This document shows, piece after piece, positions 33,368 through 49,275 of a stretch of DNA of 64,000 nt (position 1 is its first letter; the number at the start of each line of letters is the position of its first letter). The translations under genes were made by a program, and so were the position numbers. The notes beneath the pieces are model-generated. The model saw nothing but the letters and a program-made list of their open reading frames with translations, ran no database searches and was not told the DNA's origin. The DNA comes from Candidatus Nomurabacteria bacterium (lineage in GTDB: Bacteria > Patescibacteriota > Minisyncoccia > Phycocordibacterales > UBA9973): the NCBI GenBank assembly GCA_026395915.1, contig JAPLXU010000013.1, positions 16,428 to 80,427 on the forward strand. The letters run 5' to 3'.

Positions 33368-33404
33368 TGTTTGTTTTTTGGAATTATGGTATGATAAAAA
33401 GCGT

Positions 33405-33809: not shown

Positions 33810-33827
33810 TATAAAACATAAAAAAAT

Positions 33828-34250
33828 ATGACCATCAGTCAAATTTTTATAACAGAAAAAGCGCGTTTGTTAAAAGAGTACATTCAAAAATCCAAAGATA
33901 TTTTTGGGATGGTTTCAGATGATAAGATTATTCTTGGATCGGACAATGTCTATGTTTTAGAACGGATGTTTCAGCTTGCCGTGGAAGTGGTGATTGACAT
34001 TAATAATTATTTAATAAAAGAACTTGATATCGAACCGGCGGAAGATATAGAGGGGACATTTCAAACTTTGGCTAGGAAAGATATTCTGCCTATGGATTTT
34101 GCCGTTAAAATTAGTCCGACAGTAGGGTTGCGAAATAAACTGGTTCATGTTTACGAAAAAGTGGACAGAGCTTTTTTTGTTAGCAATTTCAGAAAAAATG
34201 TCGATGATTTTGATAAATATATTTCGTATGTTTTAAAATTTGTGAAATAA
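33828..34250 (+). CDS. hepT: HEPN-domain protein HepT (DUF86) toxin
   Basis: Rx4HxY motif RNKLVHVY. 140 aa. Immediately downstream of the MNT gene. Confidence 0.65.
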   Translation: MTISQIFITEKARLLKEYIQKSKDIFGMVSDDKIILGSDNVYVLERMFQLAVEVVIDINNYLIKELDIEPAEDIEGTFQTLARKDILPMDFAVKISPTVGLRNKLVHVYEKVDRAFFVSNFRKNVDDFDKYISYVLKFVK

Positions 34251-34287
34251 AAATATGTATGATTCAAAAAATATGTCAGCATTTTAC

Positions 34288-34308
34288 GAGAGAGAGAGAG
34301 AGAGAGAG
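34288..34308. repeat. (GA)10 dinucleotide microsatellite
   Basis: gagagagagagagagagagag, lying between in-frame ATGs (34255/34273) and the surface-protein ORF start. Confidence 0.9.
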
Positions 34309-34361
34309 TAAATCTCGCTCCGCGGAAGTTTAATTTTGGTTTCGTTAAGACCATTGCGGTT

Positions 34362-37300
34362 TTGTTTTGCTTTGGATTTTTGCTTTTGGCTTTAGTGGCT
34401 GTTGCCTTTGTAAAATTTTCTCCGGTATCTGCTACAGTATCATCTACCTCTGCAACCGTTCTCGCCAAATCCGATCTCCTCCAATTCACTTCGCATGGTC
34501 AAGTTATCGGTTTCCAAAACACAGGCTTTATCCTCGCATCTCCCACACACATGCTCAAAATTGATTTTTTAAATTCCAACAACATCACGCCAGTATCAGA
34601 TAGCGCGCCAACCACACCTTCCACTTCTACCACCTTACCTTCCACAACAGAAAAAGCCGCTCCGCTTACAAAAGTTACTTACTCCAATGTTTGGAATGGC
34701 ATAGATATTGTTTATGAAGCCAACAAAGATTCTCTGATGAAAAGCACCTATTATGTTGATATCACAAAGCAAGGAGTTTCTCCAGACAGTATCAAGCTTC
34801 ACTACAACCGTCCTCTTTCTTTGGATAAAAATAAAAGTCTCACAATCAAATATGACATTGGCACAATCACCGAATCAGCTCCTCTCGCTTGGCAAATAAT
34901 AAATAACAAAAAAGTTTTTGTACCAATTTCTTACAAACTTATAAACGAAAATGATATCGGATTTACTCTTGGAGCTTACACTCCAAATATTCCAATAGTC
35001 ATCGATCCCACTTATACATGGAATCCTTTTTTGGGAGGAAGCGGGAGTGATACTGGCCACGGGATTGCGGTAGACGTTAATGGAAACGTTTATGTCAGTG
35101 GTTATAGTAGTTCCACATGGGGTTCACCTGTGCGAGCATATACTGATGGTGGTGATGCCTTTGTAGCAAAACTCAGTAGCACAGGAATTCTTATCTGGAA
35201 CACCTTTTTGGGTGGAAATGGAGAAGATTATGGTTTTGGTGTCGCCGTAGATACAAACGGAAATGTTTATGCTACTGGATACAGTAATGATACATGGGGG
35301 GTAACACCAGTGCGATCATATACTTCAAGCACTGATGCTTTTGTCGTTAAACTTGATAGTGCGGGCGTATTAACTTGGAATACTTTCTTGGGAGGTAGTA
35401 GAGAGGATCAAGGAAATGGAATCGCCGTAGACATCAGCGGAAATGTTTATGTTACCGGAACTACTAGTGGCGCCACTTGGGGTTCACCTGTAAAAGCATA
35501 CCTGTCAACTCAAGATGCTTTTGCCGCTAAAATCAGTAGTGCTGGCGCTCTCACATGGAATACTTTTGTGGGTAGGAGTAGTACTGTTGGTCAAGGAATA
35601 GCAGTTGATACTAGTGGTAATGTTTACATTGCTGGAAGTGTTGGTGGTGGCTCCGGTTTTGCCTCTATTGTTAGAGCATATACCTCATCTAATGATGGCT
35701 TTGTTGTAAAATTCGCAAATAATGGCGCTCTCACGTGGACCTCTTTTTTGGGTGGAAATGGAGGTGATGAAAGTTACGCAATTGCAGTTGACACGATTGG
35801 AAATATTTACGTAACTGGACTCAGCGACACCACTTGGGGTTCACCAGTGCGAGCGTATTATGGTTCTAGTTACGATATTTGGGCAGCTAAGCTAGATACT
35901 AATGGCGCTCTTACGTGGAATACTTTTTTAGGCGATAGTGGTAATGACTATGGCTACGGGATCGCTATCGACATTAATGGAAACGTATATGTCGTTGGAT
36001 ACACTTCAGCCACTTGGGGTTCACCAGTGAGAACATACTCTTCCGGTCTTGATGTCTTCGCCGCTAAACTTGATGGTGTTGGTACTCTTGTATGGAATAC
36101 TTTTTTGGGAGGAAATGAGACCGATGTTGGTTACGGTATCGCTATCGACATTAATGGAAATGTTTATATTGGCGGGGCTGGTCCCACTACCTGGGAATCT
36201 CCAACAATTGCTCATGATTTAGGAGCCAACACAGATGCCTTTGTAGCCAAGTTAACCTCCCTTGGCGCTCTCACCACCATCATCGTTCCCACAATCACTC
36301 CAACAGCAGGAAGTAACGGTGCAATATCTCCAAGTGTTCCAACTGATGTAACAAGCGGTGGCAGCCAATCCTTCACCCTCACCCCATCAGCTCACTACCA
36401 CGTAGCCGATGTATTAGTCGACAGTGTCTCTCAAGGGGCAATAACTTCATACACTTTTTCAAATGTCACAGGAGATCACGCAATCTCTGCCACCTTTGCC
36501 ATAGACACCCAAACAGTTACCTTCAACAAAAACGGTGGTGACACAGAAGCAAGTCCAACAACCAGAACAACTAATTACAATACAACAGTAACACTACCAA
36601 CAGCGCCAACAAAGACAGGTTATACTTTCTCTGGCTGGAACACAGCAGCCAATGGTTCAGGCACTGCATTCATAGGAAGCACTGCAGTTGTTGCAGATGT
36701 TACTGTATATGCTCAATGGACTATTAATAGTTATACTTTGACCTACACCGCCGGCTCTCATGGTTCAATCACAGGCACTTCTCCTCAAACAATCAATTAC
36801 GGTTCAAATGGTTCAGAAGTTACTGCTGTCCCAAATGCTCATTATCACTTTGTAAACTGGTCTGACTCTTCCATTACTAACCCAAGAACAGACACAAACA
36901 TAACTGACAATCTCTCTTTCTCAGCTAACTTTGCCATAACTACCCACACCCTCACTCCATCCTCAGATTCAAACGGTTCAATCAGTCCTTCCACATCAAC
37001 CACAATAAATGACGGTGACTCAGAAACCTTCACCATCATCCCAAACAACGGTTACCGCATCTCTGACATTCAAATAGACGGTATATCTCAAGGAACAATT
37101 GCTTCCTACACTTTCTCAAACGTTACAGATAATCACACTATCTCTGTCACCTTTGCTCGTCGTCCATCCGGTCGTCCCATAATTTCAATAACTCCACCGA
37201 CTCCAGTAGTTGCAACCCCTTCTCCTTCGACAAGCTCAGGACAAGCAACCACTCCGCCTCCTTACACAAATACAACAACAGTTTACAACTTCGGTACAAA

Positions 37301-37514
37301 AACTTTAAAGAATGGTAGCACTGGTGATGCAGTCAAAGAACTTCAAAGATTCTTGAATGCCAAGCTGAATCTTAATCTAACCATTGATGGCAAACTAGGT
37401 CCAAAGACTATTCTTGTCATCAAAGCATGGCAGAAAGCTCATGGTTTAACTCCTGATGGACTTATTGGAGCAAAGACGAAGGAGAGGATGAAAATCGAAG
37501 CGGAAAAATTCTAA
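34362..37514 (+). CDS. Large cell-surface protein: signal peptide, SBBP/beta-propeller repeats, Listeria-Bacteroides (InlB B-type) repeats, C-terminal peptidoglycan-binding domain
   Basis: ORF as listed starts at TTG (no in-frame ATG). More than 12 repeats of ..TW(G/N)SPVRAY.(S)..DAFV(A/V)KL..(G/A)(A/V)LTWNTFLGG. 'TGYTFSGWNTAANGSG...VYAQWT' repeat. C-terminus NGSTGDAVKELQRFLN...DGKLGPKT (PG_binding_1-like). Confidence 0.7.
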   Translation: MFCFGFLLLALVAVAFVKFSPVSATVSSTSATVLAKSDLLQFTSHGQVIGFQNTGFILASPTHMLKIDFLNSNNITPVSDSAPTTPSTSTTLPSTTEKAAPLTKVTYSNVWNGIDIVYEANKDSLMKSTYYVDITKQGVSPDSIKLHYNRPLSLDKNKSLTIKYDIGTITESAPLAWQIINNKKVFVPISYKLINENDIGFTLGAYTPNIPIVIDPTYTWNPFLGGSGSDTGHGIAVDVNGNVYVSGYSSSTWGSPVRAYTDGGDAFVAKLSSTGILIWNTFLGGNGEDYGFGVAVDTNGNVYATGYSNDTWGVTPVRSYTSSTDAFVVKLDSAGVLTWNTFLGGSREDQGNGIAVDISGNVYVTGTTSGATWGSPVKAYLSTQDAFAAKISSAGALTWNTFVGRSSTVGQGIAVDTSGNVYIAGSVGGGSGFASIVRAYTSSNDGFVVKFANNGALTWTSFLGGNGGDESYAIAVDTIGNIYVTGLSDTTWGSPVRAYYGSSYDIWAAKLDTNGALTWNTFLGDSGNDYGYGIAIDINGNVYVVGYTSATWGSPVRTYSSGLDVFAAKLDGVGTLVWNTFLGGNETDVGYGIAIDINGNVYIGGAGPTTWESPTIAHDLGANTDAFVAKLTSLGALTTIIVPTITPTAGSNGAISPSVPTDVTSGGSQSFTLTPSAHYHVADVLVDSVSQGAITSYTFSNVTGDHAISATFAIDTQTVTFNKNGGDTEASPTTRTTNYNTTVTLPTAPTKTGYTFSGWNTAANGSGTAFIGSTAVVADVTVYAQWTINSYTLTYTAGSHGSITGTSPQTINYGSNGSEVTAVPNAHYHFVNWSDSSITNPRTDTNITDNLSFSANFAITTHTLTPSSDSNGSISPSTSTTINDGDSETFTIIPNNGYRISDIQIDGISQGTIASYTFSNVTDNHTISVTFARRPSGRPIISITPPTPVVATPSPSTSSGQATTPPPYTNTTTVYNFGTKTLKNGSTGDAVKELQRFLNAKLNLNLTIDGKLGPKTILVIKAWQKAHGLTPDGLIGAKTKERMKIEAEKF

Positions 37515-37931
37515 CTATTACGAAGCCATTGACATATTCTTTCAATATGATATGTTACTGACAATATGCAAACCATTGACAGAAGTAGCAACGTGTATTT
37601 GCTACCTGTATGGATGAGGGTCGTATTGTCGGTAGGTATTGGTATCATCGCGATCTGTATTGTGATTGGTGCTTGTATCTGTTTCGACTATGCGGCAGAA
37701 CAGTTCTCCTTGTGGTGTGCTCGACATTAGGGCAGATAACGAGGAGGAAAAAAGCGCGCTGGCTTGAGGGACAACTCCTTCTTGCTGGCGCTTTTTATTT
37801 GCCTCCTTCGTAATCCCCAATTCGCATTTGACAAAAAAAGAAAAATAGAGTAGGCTGTTTGAGATTCATTGATTGAGTATTGGATGCAATCTCCGTAATT
37901 ATTATAAGCTTTAACAGGCCTTTTTTAATTT

Positions 37932-40900
37932 ATGCATACAATAGCCAAGCGTCCGAAGAAGTATTTTTCTAGATACAAGAAACCTCTCGTCGAATTTCCG
38001 AATTTGATCGAGGCACAATTAAAAAGTTTTAAATGGTTGGTGGAGCAGGGAATCGGAGAAGTGTTCAAGGAATTTTCTCCCATTAGCGATTACTCCACAA
38101 AAAAGTTTCAGCTAGAATTCACTTCTTTCTCTCTTTCTGAATGCAAGTATGATGAAAATAATGCGAAGGTAAATAAACTTTCGTATCAAGGTCTCTTGAA
38201 AGCTCGAGTAAAATTGACGAACAAAGTTTTGGGCACTGTGAAAGAGCAGGAAATTTTCATGTCGGAACTTCCTCTCATGACGAATCACGGAACTTTTATC
38301 ATCAACGGTGTAGAACGCGTTATCGTTCCGCAACTCGCGCGAAGTTTTGGAGTTTTCTTTACAGAATCCGAAAGCAAAGGCAACAGATATTTTGGCGCCA
38401 AGATTATTCCTGCGCGAGGTGTTTGGATTGAGATAGAGTCGGAAGCTGATGGAGCCATTTATATAAGAATAGACAAGAAAAGAAAATTCCCTGCGACAGC
38501 GCTTCTGCGAGCTATGGGTTATGAGAGTAATGAGGATATTTTGAAGGCTTTTTCCACGAATTCTATTTTCGAAGAAACGATAAAAACTTGTTTGGCGAAA
38601 GACGGAGTTAAAAGTCTGAATGATTCGTATGTAGAAATCTACAAACGCTTGAGAGATGGAGATATGGCTACAGCGGAAAACGCAAAAGAATTTATCAATT
38701 CTTTGTTTACACCTGAGCGTTACGATCTTTCTCCTGTCGGCCGTTTCAGATTCAACCAACGTTTCGGGAAGCCTATGGATGAAGTGGCGCTCGCTCGTCG
38801 AACTATTTCCAAAGAAGATTTAGCGACGGTGATTATGAATATCATCACTTTGAATAATACTCCCGACGCAAAGAGCGATGATATAGATCACTTGGGTCAG
38901 AGACGTGTAAGATTTGTCGGCGAAATACTTCAACAGAAAGTTCGCACTGGTATGATGCAGATCAAGAGAAACATTCAAGACAGAATGTCTATTATCGACG
39001 TTGATACTGCGATGCCTATCGCCATTATCAACCAACGTCCGCTTCAAGCTCGAATAAAAGAATTTTTCACCACGAACCAGCTTTCCCAATTTATGGCGCA
39101 AGAAAATGTGCTTTACGAAATAGAACATTTGCGCACTCTTTCGGCTTTGGGACCCGGAGGTCTCACTCGCGAGCGCGCAGGACTCGAAGTCCGCGATGTG
39201 CATCCTTCTCACTATGGAAGAGTTTGTCCTATTCACACTCCTGAAGGTCCGAACATTGGGCTCATTTTGCACCTTTCCACTTACGCTAAAATAAATGATT
39301 TTGGAATTATTGAAACTCCATATGTAAAAGTTTCAAAAGGAAAAATCACCGGCGAAGTAGTTTACTTAAACGCGCTTGAGGAAGAAAAGTACAATATCGC
39401 GCATGCCGGAATTCCTTATGATGAAAGTGGAAGAATCACAGAAGAAAAAGTAGAAGCCAGAATCAAGACAGAGCCGGGTCAAGTTTCCCGCGATGAAGTT
39501 GATTTCATTGACGTCTCTCCCAACCAAGCTTTTTCGATAGCGACTTCAATGATTCCGTTTTTGGAACACAACAATGCAAACAGAGCATTGATGGGAAGCA
39601 ACATGCAGAAGCAGGCAGTGCCTTGCGTGTTGCCCGAAGCTCCTCTTGTCGCCACAGGCATAGAAGAATTAGCGGCTCGCGATGGAGGACGTTTGGTTAT
39701 CGCTGAAGAAGATGGTCTAATCTCTTATTTAGATGCGAAAAAAATAACTATCAAAGGGAAAAAAGAGCAGACTTATCCTCTTGTTAATTTTATGAGGAAT
39801 AACAACTTCGCTGTATTTCATCAGCGTCCGTTGGTGAATGTCGGTGATAAGGTGAAGAAGGGCGATGTGTTGGCGGATACCAGTAGCACAGTAGGTGGGC
39901 AAATTTCTCTAGGGCAAAATATTTTTGTTGCCTTTCTGTCTTGGTCTGGATCAACTTATGAAGATGCAATAGTTGTTTCTGAACGTTTAGTGAAAAAGAG
40001 TAAATTTACGTCGGTCTATGTCGAAGAATTCACTTGCGTTGTTCGTGATACGAAACTCGGACCTGAAATCACTACTCGAGATATACCAAACGTCGGGGAA
40101 CTCAAACTGAAAGATCTAGACGAAGATGGCATTGTTCGCATTGGCGCGGAAGTTAGAGAAAATGATATTTTGGTTGGTAAGATCACTCCAAAAGGTGAGA
40201 CAGAACTTACTCCAGAAGAGCGACTCTTGCGTTCGATTTTTGCCGAGAAGGCGCGAGATGTCAAAGACACATCACTCCGAGTGGAACACGGAAAACGCGG
40301 ACGCATTATTGGTGTGAAGATTTTTTCTCGCGATTTGGGACATACGCTTGAAGCGGGAATCATCAAAAAAATTGTGATTGAAGTGGCTCAGATTAGAAAT
40401 ATTTCGGTTGGAGACAAACTTTCCGGACGACATGGAAACAAAGGAGTTATCTCAAGAATTTTGCCTGAAGAAGATATGCCTTACATGGCAGATGGCACGC
40501 CGGTTGATATTATTTTGTCGCCACTTGGTGTTCCTTCTCGTATGAACTTGGGACAAATATTGGAAATGCATCTTGGTATGGCGGCAAACAGTCTCGGTTA
40601 TCAAGCTATCGTTCCGCCGTTTTTGGGAGCTAAACACGAGGAAATCAGTCAAGAATTGGAAAAAGCCGGATTGCCAGCAAATGGAAAAGTGAAACTTTTT
40701 GACGGACGCACCGGAGAAGCTTTTGAACAAGATGTCGCTGTCGGTTATATGTACATGTTGAAACTTCATCACATGGTGGAAGACAAGATTCACATGCGTT
40801 CTATTGGACCTTATTCTTTAATCACTCAACAGCCTCTCGGCGGAAAAGCTCAAGGCGGTGGACAGAGATTCGGGGAAATGGAAGTCTGGGCGCTCGAAGG

Positions 40901-41102
40901 TTACGGCGCGGCTTATACTTTGCGTGAAATGCTTACTATTAAGTCTGACGATATTCTAGGTCGTTCGCAGACTTTTGATTCTATTATCAAAAATGAAATG
41001 ATTCGACCGCCAAATTCACCAGCTTCGTTCAATGTGCTCCTAAATTACTTGCGAGGGTTGGCGCTTGATGTGAATTTAAAGAAAGGCGTAGACGAGAAAT
41101 AA
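37932..41102 (+). CDS. rpoB: DNA-directed RNA polymerase subunit beta
   Basis: Full-length conserved RpoB (…GPGGLTRERAGLEVRDVHPSHYGRVCPIHTPEGPNIGL…). Confidence 0.95.
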   Translation: MHTIAKRPKKYFSRYKKPLVEFPNLIEAQLKSFKWLVEQGIGEVFKEFSPISDYSTKKFQLEFTSFSLSECKYDENNAKVNKLSYQGLLKARVKLTNKVLGTVKEQEIFMSELPLMTNHGTFIINGVERVIVPQLARSFGVFFTESESKGNRYFGAKIIPARGVWIEIESEADGAIYIRIDKKRKFPATALLRAMGYESNEDILKAFSTNSIFEETIKTCLAKDGVKSLNDSYVEIYKRLRDGDMATAENAKEFINSLFTPERYDLSPVGRFRFNQRFGKPMDEVALARRTISKEDLATVIMNIITLNNTPDAKSDDIDHLGQRRVRFVGEILQQKVRTGMMQIKRNIQDRMSIIDVDTAMPIAIINQRPLQARIKEFFTTNQLSQFMAQENVLYEIEHLRTLSALGPGGLTRERAGLEVRDVHPSHYGRVCPIHTPEGPNIGLILHLSTYAKINDFGIIETPYVKVSKGKITGEVVYLNALEEEKYNIAHAGIPYDESGRITEEKVEARIKTEPGQVSRDEVDFIDVSPNQAFSIATSMIPFLEHNNANRALMGSNMQKQAVPCVLPEAPLVATGIEELAARDGGRLVIAEEDGLISYLDAKKITIKGKKEQTYPLVNFMRNNNFAVFHQRPLVNVGDKVKKGDVLADTSSTVGGQISLGQNIFVAFLSWSGSTYEDAIVVSERLVKKSKFTSVYVEEFTCVVRDTKLGPEITTRDIPNVGELKLKDLDEDGIVRIGAEVRENDILVGKITPKGETELTPEERLLRSIFAEKARDVKDTSLRVEHGKRGRIIGVKIFSRDLGHTLEAGIIKKIVIEVAQIRNISVGDKLSGRHGNKGVISRILPEEDMPYMADGTPVDIILSPLGVPSRMNLGQILEMHLGMAANSLGYQAIVPPFLGAKHEEISQELEKAGLPANGKVKLFDGRTGEAFEQDVAVGYMYMLKLHHMVEDKIHMRSIGPYSLITQQPLGGKAQGGGQRFGEMEVWALEGYGAAYTLREMLTIKSDDILGRSQTFDSIIKNEMIRPPNSPASFNVLLNYLRGLALDVNLKKGVDEK

Positions 41103-41105
41103 AAT

Positions 41106-41936
41106 ATGGACAAAAATCAATTGGCTATTTTTGAAAACTTTAAAATAAGAAGGCATTATAACGAGAAAGAAGAAGTCTGGTATTTTTCAGTGGTTGATAT
41201 TATTGGAGCGCTTTTAGATCAGAATGATTTTCAAAAATCTAGAAGTTATTGGAAAAAGCTGGCACAACGACTCAGAGAGGAGGGAAGTCAAGTGGTGACA
41301 AATTGTCACCGGTTGAAAATGGTGGCAGCTGATGGAAAAATGAGAGAAACTGATGTAGCTAGTGTAGAAACTATTTTACGCATTATTCAAACAGTGCCAA
41401 GTAAAAGAGCTGAACCATTTAAGCTCTGGCTGGCGAAAGTTGGTTATGAAAGATTGCAGGAAATGGCTGATCCGGAAAAATCAATAAACAGAGCAAGAGA
41501 AAATTGGCAAAAACATGGACGTAGCAATCAATGGATACAGCAAAGAATGATGGGGCAGGAAATTAGAAACAAGCTCACGGATTATTGGAAAAATAATGAA
41601 GTAAAAGAAAAAAAAGAATATGCCATTTTGACGAATATTATTCACGAAGAATGGAGCGGTGTTTCTGTCCAAAGTCATAAAAAAATGAAGGGGCTAAAAA
41701 CTCAAAACTTGCGCGATCATATGTCCGACGCGGAATTGGTTTTTACCGCTTTGGCTGAATTATCCACCAGACAAATTGCTGAAACGATGGAAACAAAAGG
41801 ATTGGAAGAAAATAAAATTCCAGCAATAAAAGGTGGAAGCATTGCCAAAAATGCGCGAAAATCATTGGAGGCAAAAACTGGAAAGCCAGTGGTAACCGGC
41901 AAAAATTTTTTATTAGCAAGTGAAGTTAAAAAGTAA
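41106..41936 (+). CDS. Bro-N domain / DinD-like (DNA-damage-inducible protein D family) protein inserted between rpoB and rpoC
   Basis: N-terminus IFENFKIRRHYNEKEEVWYFSVVDIIGAL = Bro-N fold motif. Remainder (…RAEPFKLWLAKVGYERL…) resembles DinD-like proteins. Confidence 0.55.
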   Translation: MDKNQLAIFENFKIRRHYNEKEEVWYFSVVDIIGALLDQNDFQKSRSYWKKLAQRLREEGSQVVTNCHRLKMVAADGKMRETDVASVETILRIIQTVPSKRAEPFKLWLAKVGYERLQEMADPEKSINRARENWQKHGRSNQWIQQRMMGQEIRNKLTDYWKNNEVKEKKEYAILTNIIHEEWSGVSVQSHKKMKGLKTQNLRDHMSDAELVFTALAELSTRQIAETMETKGLEENKIPAIKGGSIAKNARKSLEAKTGKPVVTGKNFLLASEVKK

Positions 41937-41940
41937 ACAT

Positions 41941-44900
41941 ATGAAAACTTTAAACACAACTGAATTTGATTCCATCGGATTGCGTCTCGCTTCGCCAGAG
42001 CAGATACAGGAATGGTCTTTTGGAGAAGTGACCAAACCGGAAACCATAAATTATCGCACGGGAAGGAGCGAACGTGGAGGTCTCTTTGACGAAAAAATAT
42101 TCGGGCCGGAAAAAGACTACGAATGTTACTGTGGAAAGTATCGCCGAATTCGTTACAAGGATATTATTTGCGAAAAATGCGGAGTGGAAGTTACGCGTTC
42201 GATTGTTCGTCGTGAACGCATGGGACATATCGAGCTTTCTACACCGGTATCGCATATTTGGTTCTTGCGTGGAGTGCCTTCTCGCATGAGCATCTTGCTC
42301 AATATCTCCGTGATTGATCTTGAAAAGGTTATTTATTTTGCCGGCTATATAATCACCAAAGTTCATGAGGAAGAAAAACAGTCAATAATCACAGGCTTGG
42401 ACAAAGAATATAAAGCCAAGCTAAAAAATGCGGCTGATGATGACATCAAAGAGAAGCTGAAAAATTTGCTTTCCGTCACCAAAAAAGAAATTGGAGAAAT
42501 CTACGAAGGAAAAGTTTTGAATGAAATTTCTTTCCATCATTATTCTCTGAAATACGGAACTTGTTTTGAAGCGAATATCGGCGCCGAAGCTATTTACTCA
42601 ATTTTCAAAAATCTTGACTTGAATAAATTAAAAGCTCACACCGAAAAAATGTTGGAGAAGGCGAGCGCTGCGGAAAAAGACAAATTACAGAAGAGGCTTT
42701 CTCTCATTCGCGCTATGACTTATGCTGGGATCAGACCGGAATGGATGTTCCTTACGATTATTCCTGTCATTCCTCCAGTTTTGCGTCCGATGGTGGCTCT
42801 CGATGGAGGCAGACATGCTACTTCTGATTTGAACGATCTTTACCGCAGAGTTATAAACAGAAATAATCGTTTGAAAAAATTAAAAGAGATCAACGCGCCG
42901 GACGTAATCTTGCGAAATGAAAAAAGAATCATCCAAGAAGCTGTCGACGCTTTGATTGATAACTCAATCGCGAAACAAAATGATTCTGCGGCGATGAGTC
43001 AATCTCAGAAACGCCCACTAAAATCTCTTTCGGACAATTTGAAATCTAAACAAGGTCTTTTTCGCCAAAATTTGCTCGGAAAAAGAGTAGACTATTCTGG
43101 ACGTTCGGTTATTGTTGTTGGTCCCGAACTCAAACTCAATCAATGCGGTTTGCCGAAGCATATGGCGCTCGAACTTTTCCGACCATTCGTGATTTCAAAA
43201 ATCTTGCAGGCGGAATTGGCGTTTAACATTCGCGGGGCAAATAAGCTCATCGAAGAACGCACCCCCGAAGTTTGGGCGATGCTCGAAGAAGTTATTGCGG
43301 GAAAGTATGTGCTTTTAAACCGCGCGCCGACCTTGCACAGATTGGGTATTCAAGCTTTTAATCCAATTCTGATTGAAGGAAATGCTATTCAAGTGCATCC
43401 TCTTGTTTGTCAGGCTTTTAACGCTGATTTCGATGGAGACCAAATGGCTGTCTATGTTCCTCTTCTCGAAGAAGCGCAGTCTGAAGCGAAAGAATTAATG
43501 GCTGCGAATAAAAATCTGCTCAAACCTCAAAACGGAGAGCCGATCGTAAACCCTCGCATGGACATGGTGCTCGGAAGCTATTGGATGACAAAATCAATGG
43601 AAGGAGAAAAAGGGGAGGGAAAATATTTTTCGCGACCTAATGTGGCTATTAGCGCCTATGAATATGGGATCACTTCTTTGCGCGCGAAAGTAAAAGTCTT
43701 AGCGGATACAGCTAAAGTAAAATACAAGAAATTTGATGGGGGAATTTTTGAAACTTCTGCCGGCAAACTTCTCTTTAATAGTATTTTGCCAGACGATTTT
43801 CCTTACGTGGGCGATGAAATGACTCAGGACAGACTGATTGCGCTTCTCGATGAACTCATAGTGCATTACGGCGTGGACGCTACTCCTAAAATCTTGGACA
43901 AGATAAAGGCGTTTGGTTTCAAATATTCGACAGTTTCTGGCACCACTTGGGGACTCGATAATGTTTCTGTGTCTCTCGACAAGCCAAAAATTATTGCGCA
44001 AGGTAAAAAATTGGAAGAAGAAATTATCTCTCAATGGAGGGAAGGTCTTTTGTCTGAAGAAGAGAAGTATCAAAAAATTATTGAAATTTGGACTCACACA
44101 AAAAAGGATTTGGAAAAAATTCTACCAAAAACATTGGATAAAAAAAGTTCCACTTACGATCTTTTCACTTCGAAAGCTAGAGGCACGATGTCTAGCTTGA
44201 TGCAAATGACAGGCATGATCGGACTTATCCAGAACAACCAAGGCAAGACTTTGGAGTTCCCGATTATTCCTTGTTATCAAGAAGGACTTTCTCCGATCGA
44301 GTATTTCGTCATCACACACGGAGCTCGTAAAGGTGCTTCTGATACCGCGCTCAATACCGCAAAAGCCGGATATTTGACGCGAAGACTGGTTGACGTTGCG
44401 CAGGATGTTGTCATTACGGAAATAGATTGTGGTACAAAAGAAGGAAGAATGGTCAGAAGCGAAGATATTTCCGGAATAAAAATTCCACTTTCAAAAAATA
44501 TTCGTGGACGAGTTTTGGCAGCCGATCTAAAAGACAAGGACGGCAAAGTGGTTTACAAAAAAGGATTTTTGGTCACCAAAGAAGAAGCTTACAATATCGA
44601 AGGCGCTGGTTTCACAGAAGTTTTTGTCCGTTCTCCACTAACCTGTGAGACTATTCACGGCCTCTGCGTCAATTGTTACGGACTTGATTTGGGACGCAAT
44701 CATCTTGTCGAGCTCGGTGAAGCAGTCGGTATCATTGCCGCTCAAGCTATCGGCGAACCGGGTACTCAGCTTACTCTTCGCACGTTCCATGCTGGAGGCG
44801 TGGCGGGAACTGATATCACGACTGGTTTGCCTCGCGTTGAAGAAATATTTGAAAGAAGAGTTCCCAAAAATCCTGCTATTATTTCTGAGACAGACGGAGA

Positions 44901-45579
44901 AGTTGTTGAGATAAAAGTCAAAGATGAGAAAGAGAAAATCATCAAAGTATTGTCCGATATTAAAGCCGACGGGAAAGGGGGTGATAAGAAAAATGAAATG
45001 GAATATATTGTGGCTTTTCATCGAACGCCGACAGTTAAAGTTGGCGACCACGTGAAAGCGGGCGACCTTTTGACTGACGGATCGGCTGATATTGCTGAGA
45101 TCTTCAAATTCGGTGGCAAGGAATTGGTTGAAAGATATATCATTCGAGAAATAAATAAAGTTTACGAATTGCAGAGCGCTTCGATTAGCAGAAAGCACAC
45201 GGAAATAATCATCCGCCAGATGTTCTCACGTCGAAAAATAAAAGATGCGGGTATCACCAATTTTTCGATTGGTGATATTGTTGAGAATACTGCATTTATA
45301 GAGGAAAATCAAAGAGTTGCTGGGTTAGATAAAAAAATAACTGAAGATGAAATTGGAGGACAGGCAAAAGCAGAAACAGTTGTACTCGGCATTACCGAAG
45401 TCTCGCTTCGTACAAAGAGCTGGCTCTCTGCCGCTTCGTTCCAAAACACAAATCGTGTTCTTATTGAAAACGCAATAAAAGGGGGAGTAGACGACCTACG
45501 AGGATTGAAAGAAAATGTCATAATCGGGCGACTCATTCCGGCCGGAACTGGGTTTAAAAATAAGATAAAGGCTGAATAA
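41941..45579 (+). CDS. rpoC: DNA-directed RNA polymerase subunit beta'
   Basis: Zn-binding CxxC..CxxC, NADFDGD catalytic motif, trigger loop, C-terminal domains. Start placed at ATG 41941 (the listed ORF 41920 start overlaps the upstream gene). Confidence 0.95.
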
Positions 45580-45614: not shown

Positions 45615-46127
45615 GTGGTGAAGGTTGAAAAGGGGAAATGGATATTTATGCAAAAAGATTTTGATAAATGGAACACAGAGAAAAAAGCTGTAGATGCAAA
45701 AGTTGTAAATACAGAACTTTTCTTTCATGCTCGGGAAATTTGGTGGTGTAGCGCAGGATTAAATGTTGGAGTAGAAGCAGATGGAAAACACGAAAACTTT
45801 GAAAGGCCGATGCTAATTGTAAAAAAGTTTAATGCGGATATGGTATGGGCGCTTCCACTTACTACGCAAGGAAGAAAAAATAAGTATTATTATAAGTTGA
45901 ATCACGAAGAAGTAAAATCGTGGGTTGTTCTGTCACAAATAAAAACAATAAGCACAAAAAGATTTTTGCGAAAGGTAGGATCTATTTCTGAGTCAGATTT
46001 CAAGGAAGTAATTTTGAGGTTGCAAAAGTTGCTAAAAATCGAAAACCCCCTTACGGGGGCTTTCTCGGAGGCCGAAGCCACTAATACAAGAAGTATAAAC
46101 GGCAATCAAAACAAAGTCAAGCGATAG
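45615..46127 (+). CDS. PemK/MazF-family protein, paralog 2 (orphan). The C-terminal 30 aa are probably read-through into a GC-hairpin repeat
   Basis: REIWWCSAGLNVGVEADGKHENFERPMLIVKKFNADMVWALPLTT...WVVLSQIKTISTKRFL is paralogous to 11092-11484. Homology ends near ..ILRLQKLL, after which the ORF runs through repeat copy 46041-46071. Confidence 0.55.
   Translation: MVKVEKGKWIFMQKDFDKWNTEKKAVDAKVVNTELFFHAREIWWCSAGLNVGVEADGKHENFERPMLIVKKFNADMVWALPLTTQGRKNKYYYKLNHEEVKSWVVLSQIKTISTKRFLRKVGSISESDFKEVILRLQKLLKIENPLTGAFSEAEATNTRSINGNQNKVKR
46041..46071. repeat. GC-rich hairpin repeat copy (ccccc-ttac-ggggg + tttctcggagg)
   Basis: cgaaaacccccttacgggggctttctcggag, inside the 3' end of the MazF-like ORF. 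Confidence 0.5.
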
Positions 46128-46128
46128 A

Positions 46129-46176
46129 CGAAACCCCCTTTCGGGGGTTTCTCGGGGTCTCCGACAAGGGAGACAT
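46129..46176. repeat. GC-rich hairpin repeat copy plus adjacent hairpin
   Basis: cgaaaccccctttcgggggtttctcggggtc followed by gtctcc-gacaag-ggagac. Confidence 0.5.
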
Positions 46177-46269
46177 TTACAACGTAAGTATATCAAATAC
46201 AAAAGACATGTCAAGTAAAAAATCAACCTTAATTTACAAGCTTATTATTAAAAATTTAACCAAAATAAT

Positions 46270-47889
46270 ATGAACAAAAAAATTATTTGGAGGGTTATCG
46301 TAGCGATTGTCATAATCGCAGGGGGCTTCGCGTATAATTATCTATCAAAACCAAAACCAGTGTGTTGGCCTTATTGTCCTGGAATGACGGATCAAGATCG
46401 TGAAGCAATCAAAAAATCTGCGCTTGAAGCCGAAACTGCGAATTGGAAAACGTACACAAATACTAAATATGGATTTGAAGTAAAGTATCCAGTAGATTGG
46501 AGAACTGAAGAGACAAAAACACGTTATGGTTCTACTATTTTCTCTCTAGCTCTAGTATCTCCAGAAACTGATGATTTTATCAAAAAAGTTCCTGGCACTG
46601 ATGCAAGTACATTTGACGTTGATTTTATGATATATCCATTAAATTACAGATCTAATGGTGTTCGTAGTCAGGTTGTGTTTAATGGAATTAATGCAGAAAA
46701 AGTTGTATCTGAATCTGAGCTGGGTACTCATAGTATTATCTATTTGGATGGAAAAAATTATACGTATGGGATATATAATATTAGTCCAAGAAACATTGAG
46801 GAGAATGATCAAATTCTCTCTACTTTCAAATTCATTGAGCCAACGACACAAATTGATACTTCGAATTGGAAAACGTATACAAATGAAAAATATGGTTTTT
46901 CATTATCATATCCAACCGACTTTGAAAATGTGAATGATTTAACTGCCACACAACAAAATTCTCTTTTGACGTATATGGCAGTATGTCTTGTTGGTAATAA
47001 TAATTCACGGATACGGCCAGATCAAAGTGGTTTCTGTTATGTAGGAAAACAAACGTCAGATGGGTTTACAATGGCTTCTTTGAACATAACTCCTAGTGTA
47101 TCGAAAAGTGCGCAAGAATGTAATAATACATCTGCTCAAATTAAGCAAACGACACTTAATGGTATTATCTTTGATCAATCCCATCTCGACGACGCTGGTT
47201 TAGGTCACTATGTATCAACAGATTCTTATAGGACATATCACCAGGGAATATGTTATACGATAGATCTAAACATTGAGTCGAATATAGGTAAATTAGAAAA
47301 GGGACTTAGCGTTGATTTTGCTTCTTTGATACATTCTAAATTAGAATCGATTCTTTCCACTTTCAAATTCATTCCAACCGCAAATATTTCCTCAAATGAT
47401 TCTTTGTTAAAAGCTGGAACAGATGTTTTGACTGCATTAAGAGATGATAATTATCAAAAACTAGAGGAACTTACGAGCTCAAGTGGTTTATCTTGGAATG
47501 AATATCCGCAACTTGATTTTACGAAAAATGATATTTCTAAAGATAGCATATCGGATATATCAACAGACAATAAAACTTATATGTTCGGTTACACAGATGG
47601 AAAAGGTGATCCTATCGTTTTAACAAAAAAAGACTATATAAAAGAATATCTTTATAATTACGACTACTTGTATGCTGAAAAGGTTGCTGTAAATAAAACA
47701 TTAGGTAGTGGAAACAGTGTTAATTCTATTATTAAGGATTCTGGAAATAGAACTGTCGTAGCTTACTATTTTTCTGGGTTTGATGCAAAATATGGTGGTA
47801 TGGATTGGACAACTTTGTATTTAGTTTTTGACAAGGAAAATGGTGTGTATAAGCTTTGTGGAATTGCAAAAGACAATTGGACAATTTAG
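46270..47889 (+). CDS. Membrane-anchored secreted repeat protein (WKTYTNxKYGF..KYP modules), paralog A
   Basis: N-terminal TM (IIWRVIVAIVIIAGGF). Two modules starting (T/D)(A/T)(S/N)NWKTYTN(T/E)KYGF(E/S)(V/L)(K/S)YP and ending ILSTFKFI(E/P)PT. 539 aa. Confidence 0.65.
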   Translation: MNKKIIWRVIVAIVIIAGGFAYNYLSKPKPVCWPYCPGMTDQDREAIKKSALEAETANWKTYTNTKYGFEVKYPVDWRTEETKTRYGSTIFSLALVSPETDDFIKKVPGTDASTFDVDFMIYPLNYRSNGVRSQVVFNGINAEKVVSESELGTHSIIYLDGKNYTYGIYNISPRNIEENDQILSTFKFIEPTTQIDTSNWKTYTNEKYGFSLSYPTDFENVNDLTATQQNSLLTYMAVCLVGNNNSRIRPDQSGFCYVGKQTSDGFTMASLNITPSVSKSAQECNNTSAQIKQTTLNGIIFDQSHLDDAGLGHYVSTDSYRTYHQGICYTIDLNIESNIGKLEKGLSVDFASLIHSKLESILSTFKFIPTANISSNDSLLKAGTDVLTALRDDNYQKLEELTSSSGLSWNEYPQLDFTKNDISKDSISDISTDNKTYMFGYTDGKGDPIVLTKKDYIKEYLYNYDYLYAEKVAVNKTLGSGNSVNSIIKDSGNRTVVAYYFSGFDAKYGGMDWTTLYLVFDKENGVYKLCGIAKDNWTI

Positions 47890-47907
47890 TGTGAATTAAA
47901 AAAACAT

Positions 47908-49275
47908 ATGAAGATTAATATAAAATTTATAGCATCGGTGATATTAATTGCGCTTTTTGCTGCCGGATTTTATTTTGTTGTATCACAGAAAAAGGTGCCA
48001 ATTACTTCTGCAACAGATGATTGGAAAACATACACAAATGAAAAGTACGGATTCGAGTTTAAATATCCAGCTTCAAAATATACGGTATTAGGATATGAAC
48101 TTAGTAGTCGGTATTATAAAGATGAATATGAAGTTGGTGTATATCCCATTGAAGAATATGGAGAATATTCAGGTACTGGACTCGGTATCTCTATAAGGAA
48201 TTTAGGAAAAACTCCAGTCAAATTAGAAGAGCTTATCAATTATCGTCCTCTTGGTATAGACAATACTCACAATACTAAAAAAATATTGGTGGGAGGCCAG
48301 GAGGCTGTTCGAGTTGATCATGATCTTATTCAGATTTCTGGATATGACGGTCAGCAATCAATTTTTCAGTCTTATGTTTATTTTATTAAAAATAACTTGC
48401 TTTATACTATAAATATAGAAAAAGATTCAGTCGACTTAGAAAAAAATATTTCTTTAGAAGAAATTCTTTCTTCTTTTGAATTTACTGATCCAACGACTGA
48501 CGTTTCAAATTGGAAAACATATAGCGGATATGGAATTTCTTTTAAATACCCTAGCTCTATGGGTGAGCCGAAGATCACGCAGTTAAGTACCATGACGTCA
48601 TTTAGTTTTAGTAATAGTGTAGAATTTGATATAGGTGTTTATTATGATCAAAATTTTGGTAGAAATAAAACATTTGACGAAGTTGTAAATAAGGCAAAAA
48701 ATAATCCGGAAGTTGTCTATCGTGGAGAAAAAGATATTACTGTGGGTAATAAAACTGGTGTAGAGCTTTTTCTGTTAGATAAAGTCTCTGGCGGTGAATC
48801 GGTAGAAATTTATGTTCCAAACATAGATAAGCATGGAAATATGTTATCTGGTTCTGAATATAACAGGGCGGTGGCTAATGTTGGTGGTGCTGATCTTCTG
48901 TCAATCATGAAAACTTTAGAATTTACTGAACCAGCAACACAAATTGACACTTCAAATTGGAAAACATATAAAAATGAAGACTATGGGATAGAGTTTAAAT
49001 ATCTTAGTACTTATAGCATATTAGATAGAAGTTATATAACTCCAGGAGGAGGTGTTTTTCCATCAGTAGCGATTGTTCCTCCAACTGATCAAGAAAATGA
49101 TCTAATAATTATTGGTTCTAGAACTTTAGTAAGTACGGCACCTGCAATTTCTTGTAATTCTACATTTACAAGGTGTAAAGAATTTGGGTCAAATATTGTA
49201 TATACTAAAGCTCAAAATAGTAACATTCAGGTTCTGTTTGATAACTTTATTGATACCGTAAAATTCACCAAATAA
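47908..49275 (+). CDS. Membrane-anchored secreted repeat protein, paralog B
   Basis: N-terminal TM. Three modules: DDWKTYTNEKYGFEFKYP, SNWKTYSGYGISFKYP, SNWKTYKNEDYGIEFKYL. Ends LSSFEFTDPT / MKTLEFTEPAT. 455 aa. Confidence 0.65.
   Translation: MKINIKFIASVILIALFAAGFYFVVSQKKVPITSATDDWKTYTNEKYGFEFKYPASKYTVLGYELSSRYYKDEYEVGVYPIEEYGEYSGTGLGISIRNLGKTPVKLEELINYRPLGIDNTHNTKKILVGGQEAVRVDHDLIQISGYDGQQSIFQSYVYFIKNNLLYTINIEKDSVDLEKNISLEEILSSFEFTDPTTDVSNWKTYSGYGISFKYPSSMGEPKITQLSTMTSFSFSNSVEFDIGVYYDQNFGRNKTFDEVVNKAKNNPEVVYRGEKDITVGNKTGVELFLLDKVSGGESVEIYVPNIDKHGNMLSGSEYNRAVANVGGADLLSIMKTLEFTEPATQIDTSNWKTYKNEDYGIEFKYLSTYSILDRSYITPGGGVFPSVAIVPPTDQENDLIIIGSRTLVSTAPAISCNSTFTRCKEFGSNIVYTKAQNSNIQVLFDNFIDTVKFTK

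What the first reader, a model, noticed from the sequence alone, without database searches (positions are those of the whole stretch)
41106..41936. Bro-N/DinD-like (phage-associated) gene inserted between rpoB and rpoC
Seen in sequence: a 276-aa ORF occupies the rpoB-rpoC junction (4 nt after the rpoB stop; rpoC ATG 5 nt after its stop). Its N-terminus (IFENFKIRRHYNEKEEVWYFSVVDIIGAL) matches the Bro-N domain, which is typical of phage anti-repressor/KilA-like and DinD-family proteins. Established knowledge: rpoB and rpoC are almost universally adjacent and co-transcribed, so a phage- or damage-associated gene inside this core operon is unusual and would be expressed with RNAP subunits.
Basis: partly seen in the sequence, partly recalled or inferred. 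Interest (0 to 1): 0.55.

Follow-up and report, generated by a model that had tools for sequence, protein, structure and literature searches.

The report
DinD-like accessory gene inside rpoBC operon
A single horizontally acquired gene for a Bro-N/DinD-type DNA-binding protein, from a family listed as an untested anti-phage candidate, sits scarlessly between the two large RNA polymerase subunit genes of one Candidatus Nomurabacteria strain; this is real and unusual in position, but the gene is an ordinary member of a very large known family.

Summary
ORF 41106-41936 (276 aa) lies 3 nt after the rpoB stop and 4 nt before the rpoC ATG. It scores just above threshold for Pfam Bro-N. It matches PHROG 15286 (E 3e-92) and PADLOC candidate-defence model PDC-S13 (E 2e-118) over its full length.

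It is an insertion, not a lineage-core gene. Of 79 related genomes, 75 have rpoB and rpoC directly adjacent and none carries this gene there. Four carry other cargo at that junction: a MazF toxin, a RelB/YafQ pair, an NYN protein and a genuine DinD.

Close homologues (73-87% identical) lie in unrelated contexts across many Patescibacteria, where housekeeping proteins are only 35-44% identical. dN/dS is about 0.1. No repeats, integrase, private promoter or terminator accompany the gene, so it must be co-transcribed with rpoBC.

This genome also has insertions at both neighbouring junctions (trmD|rpoB and rpoC|dnaG), which relatives fill more often than rpoB|rpoC. "Phage-associated" is only weakly supported.

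Verdict: a new member of a known family in an uncommon position. Function is inferred, not shown.

The parts
37529..37556 (+). Promoter-like site (TTGACA-16-TATGTT with TG) upstream of rpoB; the candidate start of the transcript that would carry rpoB, the ORF and rpoC
   Evidence: Consensus scan. The number of promoter-like sites in the region is not above the shuffle expectation, so this is only a candidate.
37932..41102 (+). rpoB (RNA polymerase beta subunit, 1056 aa)
   Evidence: Pfam Rpb2 domains 1, 2, 3, 45, 6 and 7. The C-terminus ...LKKGVDEK matches relatives, so the insertion did not alter it.
41100..41108 (+). Left junction: rpoB stop TAA, 3-nt spacer AAT, ORF start ATG
41106..41936 (+). 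Inserted gene: 276-aa Bro-N / DinD-like protein (PADLOC PDC-S13, PHROG 15286)
   Evidence: AF2 model with pLDDT 89.6. dN/dS about 0.1 against homologues.
41151..41438 (+). Bro-N domain (residues 16-111): beta-hairpin plus winged-helix-like alpha/beta fold
41403..41879 (+). All-helical C-terminal domain (residues ~100-258) with invariant motifs, including NLRDHM..EL and GG
41934..41943 (+). Right junction: ORF stop TAA, 4-nt spacer ACAT, rpoC start ATG
41941..45579 (+). rpoC (RNA polymerase beta' subunit, 1212 aa)
   Evidence: Pfam Rpb1 domains 1-5.
33333..37514 (+). Second accessory block in the same conserved array, between trmD and rpoB: MNT nucleotidyltransferase, HepT toxin and a 1050-aa SBBP/PG-binding surface protein
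   Evidence: Pfam. In 25 of 52 relatives trmD directly precedes rpoB.
45615..49275 (+). Third accessory block, between rpoC and dnaG: a MazF/PemK-like protein and two PsbP_2-like proteins
   Evidence: Pfam. In 43 of 51 relatives dnaG directly follows rpoC.

Best explanation
The ORF is a horizontally acquired single-gene cassette. It encodes a two-domain, non-enzymatic DNA-binding protein: an N-terminal Bro-N domain and a helical C-terminal domain of DinD/DdrC type. It belongs to the family PADLOC lists as candidate defence gene PDC-S13.

In the ancestor of this Nomurabacteria strain the bare ORF was inserted into the few bases between the rpoB stop and the rpoC start. It brought no promoter, terminator, recombinase or repeats. 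It is therefore transcribed as part of the rpoB-rpoC mRNA and made whenever RNA polymerase is made.

Shown: identity of the flanks; family membership; absence from 79 relatives; dispersed contexts of homologues; purifying selection; the fold match.

Inferred: the protein binds DNA as a dimer, by analogy with DdrC, which bridges nicks and ends, and with E. coli DinD, which acts on RecA-DNA filaments. It would serve either as an accessory DNA-damage or foreign-DNA (anti-phage) factor, or simply persist as a hitch-hiker. Lodging between two essential co-transcribed genes gives it guaranteed expression, and only precise deletion can remove it. This is the same 'embedding' habit that made PADLOC's authors flag this family inside BREX/DISARM/type I RM operons.
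For: Anatomy.

Family:
- PHROG 15286, E 3e-92.
- PADLOC PDLC04920, E 2e-118 over the full length.
- More than 8000 relatives; the top 120 are 71-87% identical and come from Nomura-, Pace-, Falkow-, Uhr-, Moran- and Saganbacteria. Some sources name them BRO family, antirepressor or DNA-damage-inducible protein D.
- 677 clusters at 50% identity with E<1e-30.

Insertion:
- 75 of 79 relatives have rpoB and rpoC adjacent (2-107 nt), and 0 of 79 carry this gene there.
- Alignments of empty sites show the insert equals the ORF plus about 4 nt.

Mobility:
- Homologues lie next to AbiEii, a Cu-ATPase/methyltransferase pair, a reverse transcriptase, a T2SS ATPase, RhuM/DUF5680, and peptidase M48.
- On those contigs the homologue is 73-83% identical to the window protein, while DnaG and another shared protein are 35-44% identical.
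- The flanks of these homologues share no sequence.

Functionality: dN/dS 0.09-0.12 with saturated dS.

Co-transcription: no + strand terminator-like site in or beside the ORF, and no promoter enrichment.

Fold:
- AF2 pLDDT 89.6.
- Foldseek PDB top six hits are all DdrC, best E 4e-7, probability 1.0, over 215-241 columns.
- DdrC is a DNA-binding dimer that binds nicks and ends (PMC11347143, PMC9303277).
- DinD acts on RecA filaments (Uranga 2011, cited in PMC4849656).

Embedding habit:
- PDC families were defined by being embedded in BREX/DISARM/RM-I operons (bioRxiv 10.1101/2024.01.29.577857).
- A dinD+RhuM-domain CDS lies between the core genes of a type I RM system (PMC9881135).
- A 45%-identical paralogue is embedded between the KH gene and trmD in L055, with a 4-nt overlap.
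- A true DinD lies 1 nt before rpoC in L029.
Against: - No function of this clade has been tested. PDC-S13 is an untested candidate, and no paper in the library mentions it.
- The DdrC match rests on a predicted model with modest TM-scores (0.3-0.5) and 12-15% identity. No sequence-level link to any PDB chain was found.
- Homology of the C-terminal domain to DinD is weak: BLASTP gives nothing, a shallow hhalign gives nothing, and a broader hhalign gives E 0.006 at 6% probability.
- The many invariant H/D/E/R/W residues could mean an enzymatic activity that the fold search did not reveal.
- Co-transcription is inferred from anatomy only.
- The closest empty-site genomes are only about 83% identical in rpoB/rpoC DNA. 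The insertion cannot be dated, and the empty site of a truly close relative was not seen.
Confidence: 0.6

Rival explanations
1. The gene is a purely selfish hitch-hiker. It gives the host nothing and persists because any imprecise deletion would damage rpoB or rpoC, and because the operon guarantees its expression ('positional addiction'). Purifying selection acts at the level of the gene's own spread.
For: - Other cargo at the same junction in relatives consists of classic addiction or toxin genes: MazF, RelB/YafQ, NYN.
- The family sits in many unrelated, tightly packed positions.
- It is far better conserved than the housekeeping genes of its hosts.
Against: - No partner antitoxin, no recognisable toxin or nuclease domain, and no transposition machinery.
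- A gene with no transmission mechanism of its own needs some benefit, or linkage, to spread so widely.
- dN/dS of about 0.1 over saturated dS implies long-term selection for protein function.
Confidence: 0.22
2. The protein is an RNA-polymerase-linked factor. It either binds RNAP or monitors host transcription (for example, a sentinel for phage shut-off), and the rpoB|rpoC position is selected because it fixes the protein's dosage to that of RNAP.
For: - Two distantly related Bro-N/DinD-type genes, the window clade and a true DinD in L029, arrived independently at the same junction among only five occupied junctions.
- Both are tightly coupled to rpoC (4 nt and 1 nt).
Against: - The nearest homologues (87% identical) and all others examined lie away from RNAP genes.
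- The other occupants of the junction are unrelated toxins.
- The neighbouring junctions are filled more often, so position looks opportunistic.
- There is no fold similarity to known RNAP-binding factors above noise.
Confidence: 0.07
3. The gene is a remnant of a prophage or phage-derived anti-repressor (the classical Bro/Ant role), left behind after an integration event.
For: - Bro-N domains are common in phage anti-repressors.
- A PHROG family exists.
- BFVD fold hits are Bro-N, KilA-N and 'repressor domain' phage proteins.
Against: - No phage gene, integrase, att-like repeat or extra DNA flanks it; the insert is the ORF alone.
- Only 4 weak hits in 50,697 phage records.
- No ANT or KilA-C C-terminal domain.
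- Viral fold matches are remote, 9-19% identity.
Confidence: 0.05
4. The gene is lineage-core, or the arrangement is an assembly chimera.
For: None beyond the tight packing, which makes it look native.
Against: - 0 of 79 relatives carry it at the junction.
- Four independent assemblies from other runs reproduce the junctions exactly.
Confidence: 0.01

Closest known systems
PADLOC phage defence candidate PDC-S13 (single-gene candidate; Payne et al. 2024, bioRxiv 10.1101/2024.01.29.577857)
   Same: Full-length HMM match to PDLC04920 (E 2e-118, residues 1-274 of 276). It is a single gene inserted between the genes of an operon in the same orientation, which is the 'embedded' behaviour by which PDC families were found.
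   Different: Here the host operon is the essential rpoBC operon, not BREX, DISARM or type I RM. No anti-phage activity has been shown for PDC-S13 anywhere, and no paper in the library mentions it.
E. coli DinD (DNA-damage-inducible protein D, PRK11525)
   Same: Same length (about 275 aa) and the same order of a Bro-N domain followed by a helical C-terminal part. A true DinD (L029) belongs to the same PADLOC family and cross-hits the window's model over its C-terminal half (E 9e-8). The two share the motif KG(L/I)K..L(R/L)D....EL.
   Different: No significant pairwise similarity and no NCBIfam hit. It is a separate clade, not an orthologue. It has no private promoter, so LexA-type damage induction of its own is anatomically impossible. 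RecA-filament inhibition is untested.
Deinococcus radiodurans DdrC (PDB 7QVB, 7UDI, 8U0G)
   Different: 12-15% identity, no sequence-level hit, and low TM-scores because of domain placement. DdrC's domain-swapped asymmetric dimer and nick/end binding (PMC11347143) are not testable here. DdrC is damage-induced, whereas this gene is wired to rpoBC.
Phage Bro / KilA-N / anti-repressor (Ant) proteins
   Same: Bro-N N-terminal domain; remote fold matches in BFVD.
   Different: No ANT or KilA-C type C-terminal domain. It is chromosomal in Patescibacteria and almost absent from phage records.
Accessory genes embedded in type I RM operons (PrrC, RhuM, Fic/DOC, a dinD+RhuM-domain CDS; PMC9881135)
   Same: A small gene sits between core genes of an operon, co-oriented, with minimal spacers. 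A close homologue (P0008) is immediately followed by a RhuM-family gene.
   Different: The host operon here is a housekeeping operon. No functional dependence on the flanking genes is known or suggested.

Membership tests
Pfam Bro-N (PF02498) | Profile score at or above the curated gathering threshold | tested here: met
   26.1 bits against a cut-off of 25.6, residues 16-111 covering profile positions 3-92 of 96. The pass is marginal. Relatives in the database carry a precomputed PF02498.
Pfam Bro-N (PF02498) | Bro-N/KilA-N/APSES-like alpha/beta DNA-binding fold | tested here: met
PADLOC PDC-S13 | Full-length match to a PDC-S13 HMM | tested here: met
   PDLC04920, E 2.2e-118, residues 1-274 against profile positions 1-272 of 286.
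PADLOC PDC-S13 | Embedded in, or associated with, BREX/DISARM/type I RM (the basis of the candidate status) | tested here: not met
   The flanks are rpoB and rpoC. Some homologues lie next to AbiEii or RhuM, but not this copy.
PADLOC PDC-S13 | Anti-phage activity | not testable with these tools
   The 145 PDCs, PDC-S13 among them, are untested in the source paper (10.1101/2024.01.29.577857). No paper mentions PDC-S13.
DinD (E. coli DinD / PRK11525) | Significant sequence similarity to DinD-clade proteins | tested here: inconclusive
   BLASTP against the L029 DinD is not significant. The shallow hhalign gives nothing, and the broader hhalign gives E 0.006 over 151 C-terminal columns. The L029 DinD hits the window's PADLOC model at E 9e-8. 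This indicates a remote homologue, not an orthologue.
DinD (E. coli DinD / PRK11525) | Own DNA-damage-inducible (LexA-controlled) promoter | tested here: not met
   Only 3 nt separate the ORF from the rpoB stop, so there is no room for a private operator or promoter. The promoter scan shows no enrichment.
DinD (E. coli DinD / PRK11525) | Inhibition of RecA filaments | not testable with these tools
   This is a biochemical property (Uranga 2011, cited in PMC4849656).
DdrC | Two-domain fold (beta-hairpin plus wHTH N-terminal domain, helical-bundle C-terminal domain) | tested here: met
DdrC | Sequence homology to DdrC | tested here: not met
   No PDB chain is hit by phmmer or by the family profile at E<=1 and E<=10 respectively, other than chance hits.
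DdrC | Domain-swapped dimer that binds nicks and DNA ends | not testable with these tools
   Needs multimer modelling or biochemistry.
Phage anti-repressor (Ant/KilA type) | Bro-N or KilA-N domain joined to an ANT or KilA-C C-terminal domain, in a phage or prophage context | tested here: not met
   No such Pfam domain, no phage genes in the flanks, and only 4 weak hits in phage records.
Type II toxin-antitoxin module | Adjacent cognate antitoxin, and a recognisable toxin fold | tested here: not met
   The neighbours are rpoB and rpoC. There is no toxin family hit.
Autonomous mobile element (IS, homing endonuclease gene, integrative element) | Transposase, integrase or nuclease; terminal repeats; or target-site duplication | tested here: not met
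   No such domain or fold. The only repeats are a 9-10-nt near-repeat, TAAA(-/C)ATATG, that coincides with the stop/start signals, and a 13-nt repeat expected by chance in about 8% of simulations.

The most novel reading that the evidence does not exclude
Core operons of streamlined Patescibacteria genomes, rpoBC included, may serve as 'safe harbours' for single-gene defence or toxin cassettes. On this reading DinD/DdrC-type proteins are selected at rpoB|rpoC because their dose is then locked to RNA polymerase synthesis. That would make them a constitutive sentinel or protector of the transcribed chromosome, for example by sensing DNA breaks or phage take-over of transcription, in organisms that may lack a classical SOS response (my assumption; not checked here). 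Two independent arrivals of distantly related Bro-N/DinD genes at this one junction would then be convergence, not chance. It would also follow that 'guilt-by-embedding' reflects an intrinsic embedding habit of these genes rather than a defence-specific association.
Probability: 0.1. Interest if true: 0.65.

Novelty: new member of a known kind. Interest (0 to 1): 0.35.

Why it matters
rpoB and rpoC are among the most stably linked genes in bacteria. A foreign gene that must be read through to make the beta' subunit is a clear natural example of how far operon 'embedding' of accessory genes can go.

The finding has three consequences:
- A family flagged as a defence candidate only because it is embedded in defence operons also embeds in housekeeping operons (rpoBC here, rpsP-trmD in L055). 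This tempers the guilt-by-embedding argument for that family.
- In this group of Nomurabacteria the rpoB|rpoC junction has been invaded at least five times by different toxin or defence-like genes.
- The DinD-like family shows a structural link to Deinococcus DdrC, which its structural papers describe as Deinococcus-specific with no known structural homologues. This suggests concrete biochemical tests: binding to nicks and DNA ends, and effects on RecA.

The gene itself is already annotated in GenBank as 'BRO family protein' and belongs to a family of thousands of members.

Tried and rejected
- NCBIfam scan: no meaningful hit.
- PDB sequence searches with the protein and with the family profile: nothing beyond chance.
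- Profile-profile comparison of the window clade (A3) with the DinD clade (A4): failed because both alignments are shallow, Neff about 2. A broader local alignment gave only E 0.006.
- AF2 model of the DinD clade: too poor to search, pLDDT 62.8 with a disordered C-terminal half. The planned DinD-versus-DdrC fold test was dropped.
- The afdb50 library was not available.
- Insertion scars: no inverted repeats at the borders. The TAAA(N)ATATG near-repeat at both ends coincides with stop and start codons that empty sites also carry. The 13-nt exact repeat TGAAAACTTTAAA (41132 and 41942) occurs by chance in about 8% of simulated regions, and it falls in conserved codons of the family. I do not count either as a scar.
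- Paralogues elsewhere in the window: none.
- Rfam: only three tRNAs in the window, nothing near the gene.
- Literature: searches for 'PDC-S13' found nothing, and a search for insertions 'between rpoB and rpoC' found nothing relevant.
- 'Recent transfer' as the reason for the high identity among homologues: rejected as the sole cause. Synonymous sites are saturated (dS>1), so strong purifying selection must contribute.
- 'The rpoB|rpoC junction is a special hot spot': rejected after the baseline. The two neighbouring junctions of the conserved trmD-rpoB-rpoC-dnaG array are occupied more often. About half of relatives have something between trmD and rpoB, and 8 of 51 have something between rpoC and dnaG, against 4 of 79 for rpoB|rpoC.
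Full report
**1. What is in the sequence**

The window is a chromosome segment of a Candidatus Nomurabacteria (Patescibacteria/CPR) bacterium, 38.3% G+C.
- ORF 37932-41102 carries all Rpb2 domains and is rpoB.
- The ORF whose ATG is at 41941 and which ends at 45579 carries Rpb1 domains 1-5 and is rpoC.
- Between them lies ORF 41106-41936: ATG start, 276 codons, TAA stop.
- It is separated from the rpoB stop by 3 nt (AAT) and from the rpoC ATG by 4 nt (ACAT).
- Four contigs assembled from four other sequencing runs are 100% identical to the window across both junctions. The arrangement is therefore not an assembly artefact, although these contigs represent the same strain and not independent lineages.

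The spacer lengths it gave are each one base too long.

**2. What the protein is**

Profile hits:
- Pfam gives one hit, Bro-N, residues 16-111, 26.1 bits against a gathering cut-off of 25.6. This is a marginal pass.
- PHROG 15286 (function unknown) matches over the full length, E 3e-92.
- PADLOC model PDLC04920 of 'PDC-S13' matches over the full length, E 2e-118.
- NCBIfam gives nothing.

PDC families are 145 untested 'phage defence candidates'. They were defined because they are found embedded between the genes of BREX, DISARM or type I RM operons (bioRxiv 10.1101/2024.01.29.577857). No paper in the library mentions PDC-S13 itself.

The family is very large:
- More than 8000 database clusters match. 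The best 120 are 71-87% identical and come from many Patescibacteria lineages. Their sources name them BRO family protein, antirepressor or DNA-damage-inducible protein D.
- Among representatives clustered at 50% identity there are 677 hits with E<1e-30 and 9085 with E<1e-3.
- The window protein itself is already in GenBank as 'BRO family protein'.

**3. Is it an insertion?**

I fetched 80 loci around rpoC from GTDB species representatives whose RpoC N-terminus is 75-97% identical to the window's. I measured the interval between rpoB and rpoC in the 79 loci that hold both genes.
- In 75 the two genes are adjacent (2-107 nt).
- None has the window's gene in the interval.
- Four have other genes there.

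| Locus | Cargo at the rpoB-rpoC junction |
|---|---|
| L022 | MazF/PemK toxin plus a small membrane ORF |
| L023 | 209-aa anchored protein plus a RelB-like antitoxin and a YafQ/RelE toxin |
| L029 | PsbP_2-like protein plus a 279-aa genuine DinD ending 1 nt before rpoC |
| L075 | NYN-domain protein |

Aligning empty sites with the window shows that the extra DNA is the ORF itself plus about four bases. The RpoB C-terminus and the rpoC start are untouched.

One caveat applies. The nearest empty-site genomes are only about 83% identical in rpoB/rpoC DNA, so the event cannot be dated.

**4. Where the family lives otherwise**

Close homologues sit in unrelated places:

| Homologue or locus | Context |
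|---|---|
| P0008 | Cluster with RhuM, DUF5680, an AAA_14/DUF4143 ATPase and two further paralogues |
| P0060 (Moranbacteria) | After peptidase M48 |
| L096 | Two genes upstream of AbiEii |
| L098-L101 | Between a Cu-ATPase and a methyltransferase, with 18- and 2-nt spacers |
| L102 | After a reverse transcriptase |
| L106 | 7 nt after a T2SS/T4P ATPase |
| L105, L107, L108 | Other, unannotated neighbours |
| L055 | 45%-identical paralogue between the KH-domain gene and trmD of the rpsP operon, overlapping trmD by 4 nt |

Even the nearest relatives (87% identical: L105-L108) are not at rpoB|rpoC. Elsewhere the gene can have promoter-like and terminator-like flanks of its own, and the flanks share no sequence. 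The mobile unit is therefore the ORF alone.

On contigs that also carry genes shared with the window, the homologue is 73-83% identical, whereas DnaG and another shared protein are 35-44% identical. This, together with the lack of synteny, requires horizontal spread. However, synonymous sites between copies are saturated (dS>1) and dN/dS is 0.09-0.12. The high identity therefore also reflects strong, long-lasting purifying selection on the protein.

**5. How it is expressed**

No + strand terminator-like site lies in or beside the ORF. Promoter-like sites are not enriched. A good candidate promoter lies upstream of rpoB at 37529-37556. With 3- and 4-nt spacers, rpoC can only be transcribed by reading through the insert. 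Co-transcription, and probably translational coupling, is the anatomical inference; it has not been shown experimentally.

**6. Fold**

An AlphaFold2 model built from 74 family members is confident: pLDDT 89.6, pTM 0.77. It has an alpha/beta N-terminal domain (residues about 1-96) and an all-helical C-terminal part (about 100-258).
- Against the PDB, the six best Foldseek hits are all chains of Deinococcus radiodurans DdrC (best E 4e-7, probability 1.0, 215-241 columns).
- DdrC is a damage-induced DNA-binding dimer that recognises and bridges nicks and ends (PMC11347143). It has a beta-hairpin plus winged-helix N-terminal domain, whose own nearest neighbours are Dachshund and SKI, and a four-helix-bundle C-terminal domain (PMC9303277).
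- Sequence searches do not connect the two proteins, so this is a fold-level resemblance based on a predicted model.
- Viral structures give only remote Bro-N, KilA-N and 'repressor domain' matches.

**7. Relation to DinD**

Points in favour:
- The genuine DinD in L029 has a Bro-N domain.
- It belongs to PDC-S13 through a different model (PDLC04919, E 1e-99).
- It also hits the window's model over its C-terminal half (E 9e-8).
- A broader profile-profile alignment lines up 151 C-terminal columns, including a shared KG(L/I)K..L(R/L)D....EL motif, but only at E 0.006.

Points against:
- BLASTP between the two is not significant.
- The shallow profile comparison failed.
- An AlphaFold model of the DinD clade was too poor to use.

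E. coli DinD is reported to act on RecA filaments (Uranga 2011, cited in PMC4849656).

**8. Baseline for 'unusual position'**

In relatives the conserved array is trmD-rpoB-rpoC-dnaG-rpoD.
- dnaG directly follows rpoC in 43 of 51 evaluable loci.
- trmD directly precedes rpoB in 25 of 52.
- The window has extra genes at all three junctions:

| Junction | Coordinates | Inserted genes |
|---|---|---|
| trmD / rpoB | 33333-37514 | MNT, HepT and a 1050-aa surface protein |
| rpoB / rpoC | 41106-41936 | The Bro-N gene |
| rpoC / dnaG | 45615-49275 | A MazF-like gene and two PsbP_2-like genes |

Sources for the table.

The inserted genes have lower GC3 (0.20-0.35) than rpoB and rpoC (0.39), and most core genes in the window fall between 0.35 and 0.44. 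rpoB|rpoC is thus the least often invaded of the three junctions: 4 of 79 relatives, or 5 of 80 counting the window. It is not a special hot spot. The window's genome simply carries accessory genes wherever two genes meet.

**9. Interpretation**

Most likely, a bare ORF of the PDC-S13/DinD-like family was acquired horizontally and lodged between rpoB and rpoC. It is now made from the rpoBC transcript and encodes a DNA-binding protein of DdrC/DinD type. Whether it benefits the cell (DNA-damage handling or defence against foreign DNA) or merely hitch-hikes cannot be decided here.

The company it keeps is toxins, Abi, RhuM and RM-embedded relatives (PMC9881135). This fits both the defence-candidate reading and the selfish reading. 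An RNAP-specific role is suggested only by the double, independent arrival of Bro-N/DinD genes at this junction. It is contradicted by the contexts of all other homologues.

The mechanism of insertion is unknown. No recombinase, repeat or target duplication is present, which leaves illegitimate or short-homology recombination as the default inference.

**10. Verdict**

The insertion is supported, the Bro-N/DinD-like assignment is supported as remote family membership, and 'phage-associated' is weakly supported. The gene is a new member of a known, very abundant and functionally untested family, in an uncommon but not unique position. Interest is moderate to low. The points worth keeping are the operon-embedding behaviour in housekeeping operons and the structural link to DdrC.

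Noticed in passing
window 33333-37514: An MNT nucleotidyltransferase/HepT toxin pair and a 1050-aa SBBP-repeat, InlB-repeat, peptidoglycan-binding surface protein lie between trmD and rpoB. In 25 of 52 relatives trmD directly precedes rpoB, so this block also looks like an insertion.
   Followed up: partly
window 45615-49275: A MazF/PemK-like 170-aa gene with no visible antitoxin and two PsbP_2-like proteins (539 and 455 aa, GC3 only 0.20-0.24) lie between rpoC and dnaG. In 43 of 51 relatives dnaG follows rpoC directly. The MazF-like protein is 39% identical to the MazF that occupies the rpoB|rpoC junction in L022.
   Followed up: partly
L022 5150-5950; L023 4723-5995; L029 4554-5999; L075 5278-5778: Four related genomes carry different cargo at the same rpoB|rpoC junction: MazF plus a small membrane ORF; an anchored protein plus RelB/YafQ; a PsbP_2-like protein plus a genuine DinD; and an NYN-domain protein. 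All are co-oriented with rpoBC.
   Followed up: partly
L055 1201-2004: A 267-aa paralogue of the window gene (45% identical) is embedded in another housekeeping operon, between the KH-domain gene and trmD, overlapping the trmD start by 4 nt (ATGA).
   Followed up: partly
model of window 41106-41933 versus PDB 7QVB/7UDI/8U0G: DdrC of Deinococcus is described in its structural papers as Deinococcus-specific with no known structural homologues. It is the best and only strong structural match of this Bro-N/DinD-like family. The papers do not mention Bro-N or DinD. DdrC may be a divergent member of this architecture.
   Followed up: partly
window 41132-41144 and 41942-41954: An exact 13-nt direct repeat, TGAAAACTTTAAA, links the FENFK codons of the inserted gene with the first codons of rpoC. 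About 8% of simulated 1.5-kb regions contain such a repeat, and homologues use AAT rather than AAC at that codon. It is probably chance, but it could be a microhomology used in recombination.
   Followed up: partly
L005 341-5309 (also L006-L010): One Patescibacteria locus carries two to three paralogues of this family within 5 kb, interleaved with a RhuM-family gene, DUF5680 and an AAA_14/DUF4143 ATPase. It looks like an accessory or defence-type islet.
   Followed up: no
L022 3745-3840 (rpoB), L022 8980-9042 (rpoC), L029 9160-9204 (rpoC): Short G+C-rich, hairpin-forming in-frame inserts (peptides such as GLAHKPRPSSYDQGATAEGKSPASAGGEK and GLAHRSTTEGKS) interrupt rpoB and rpoC of two relatives. 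They are absent from the window's genes. They are reminiscent of palindromic elements that insert in frame into coding genes.
   Followed up: partly
L029 6001-9747 (rpoC): The predicted RpoC contains a perfect tandem duplication of about 46 residues ([45 protein letters not shown], twice). This is either an assembly artefact or a real duplication in a conserved region.
   Followed up: no
PADLOC model PDLC03083 (Specificity_I) versus L029 5160-5996: A PADLOC 'type I specificity subunit' model of 717 positions matches the whole DinD protein in its first 275 positions (E 4e-69). DinD-like modules therefore also occur fused to HsdS-type proteins.
   Followed up: no
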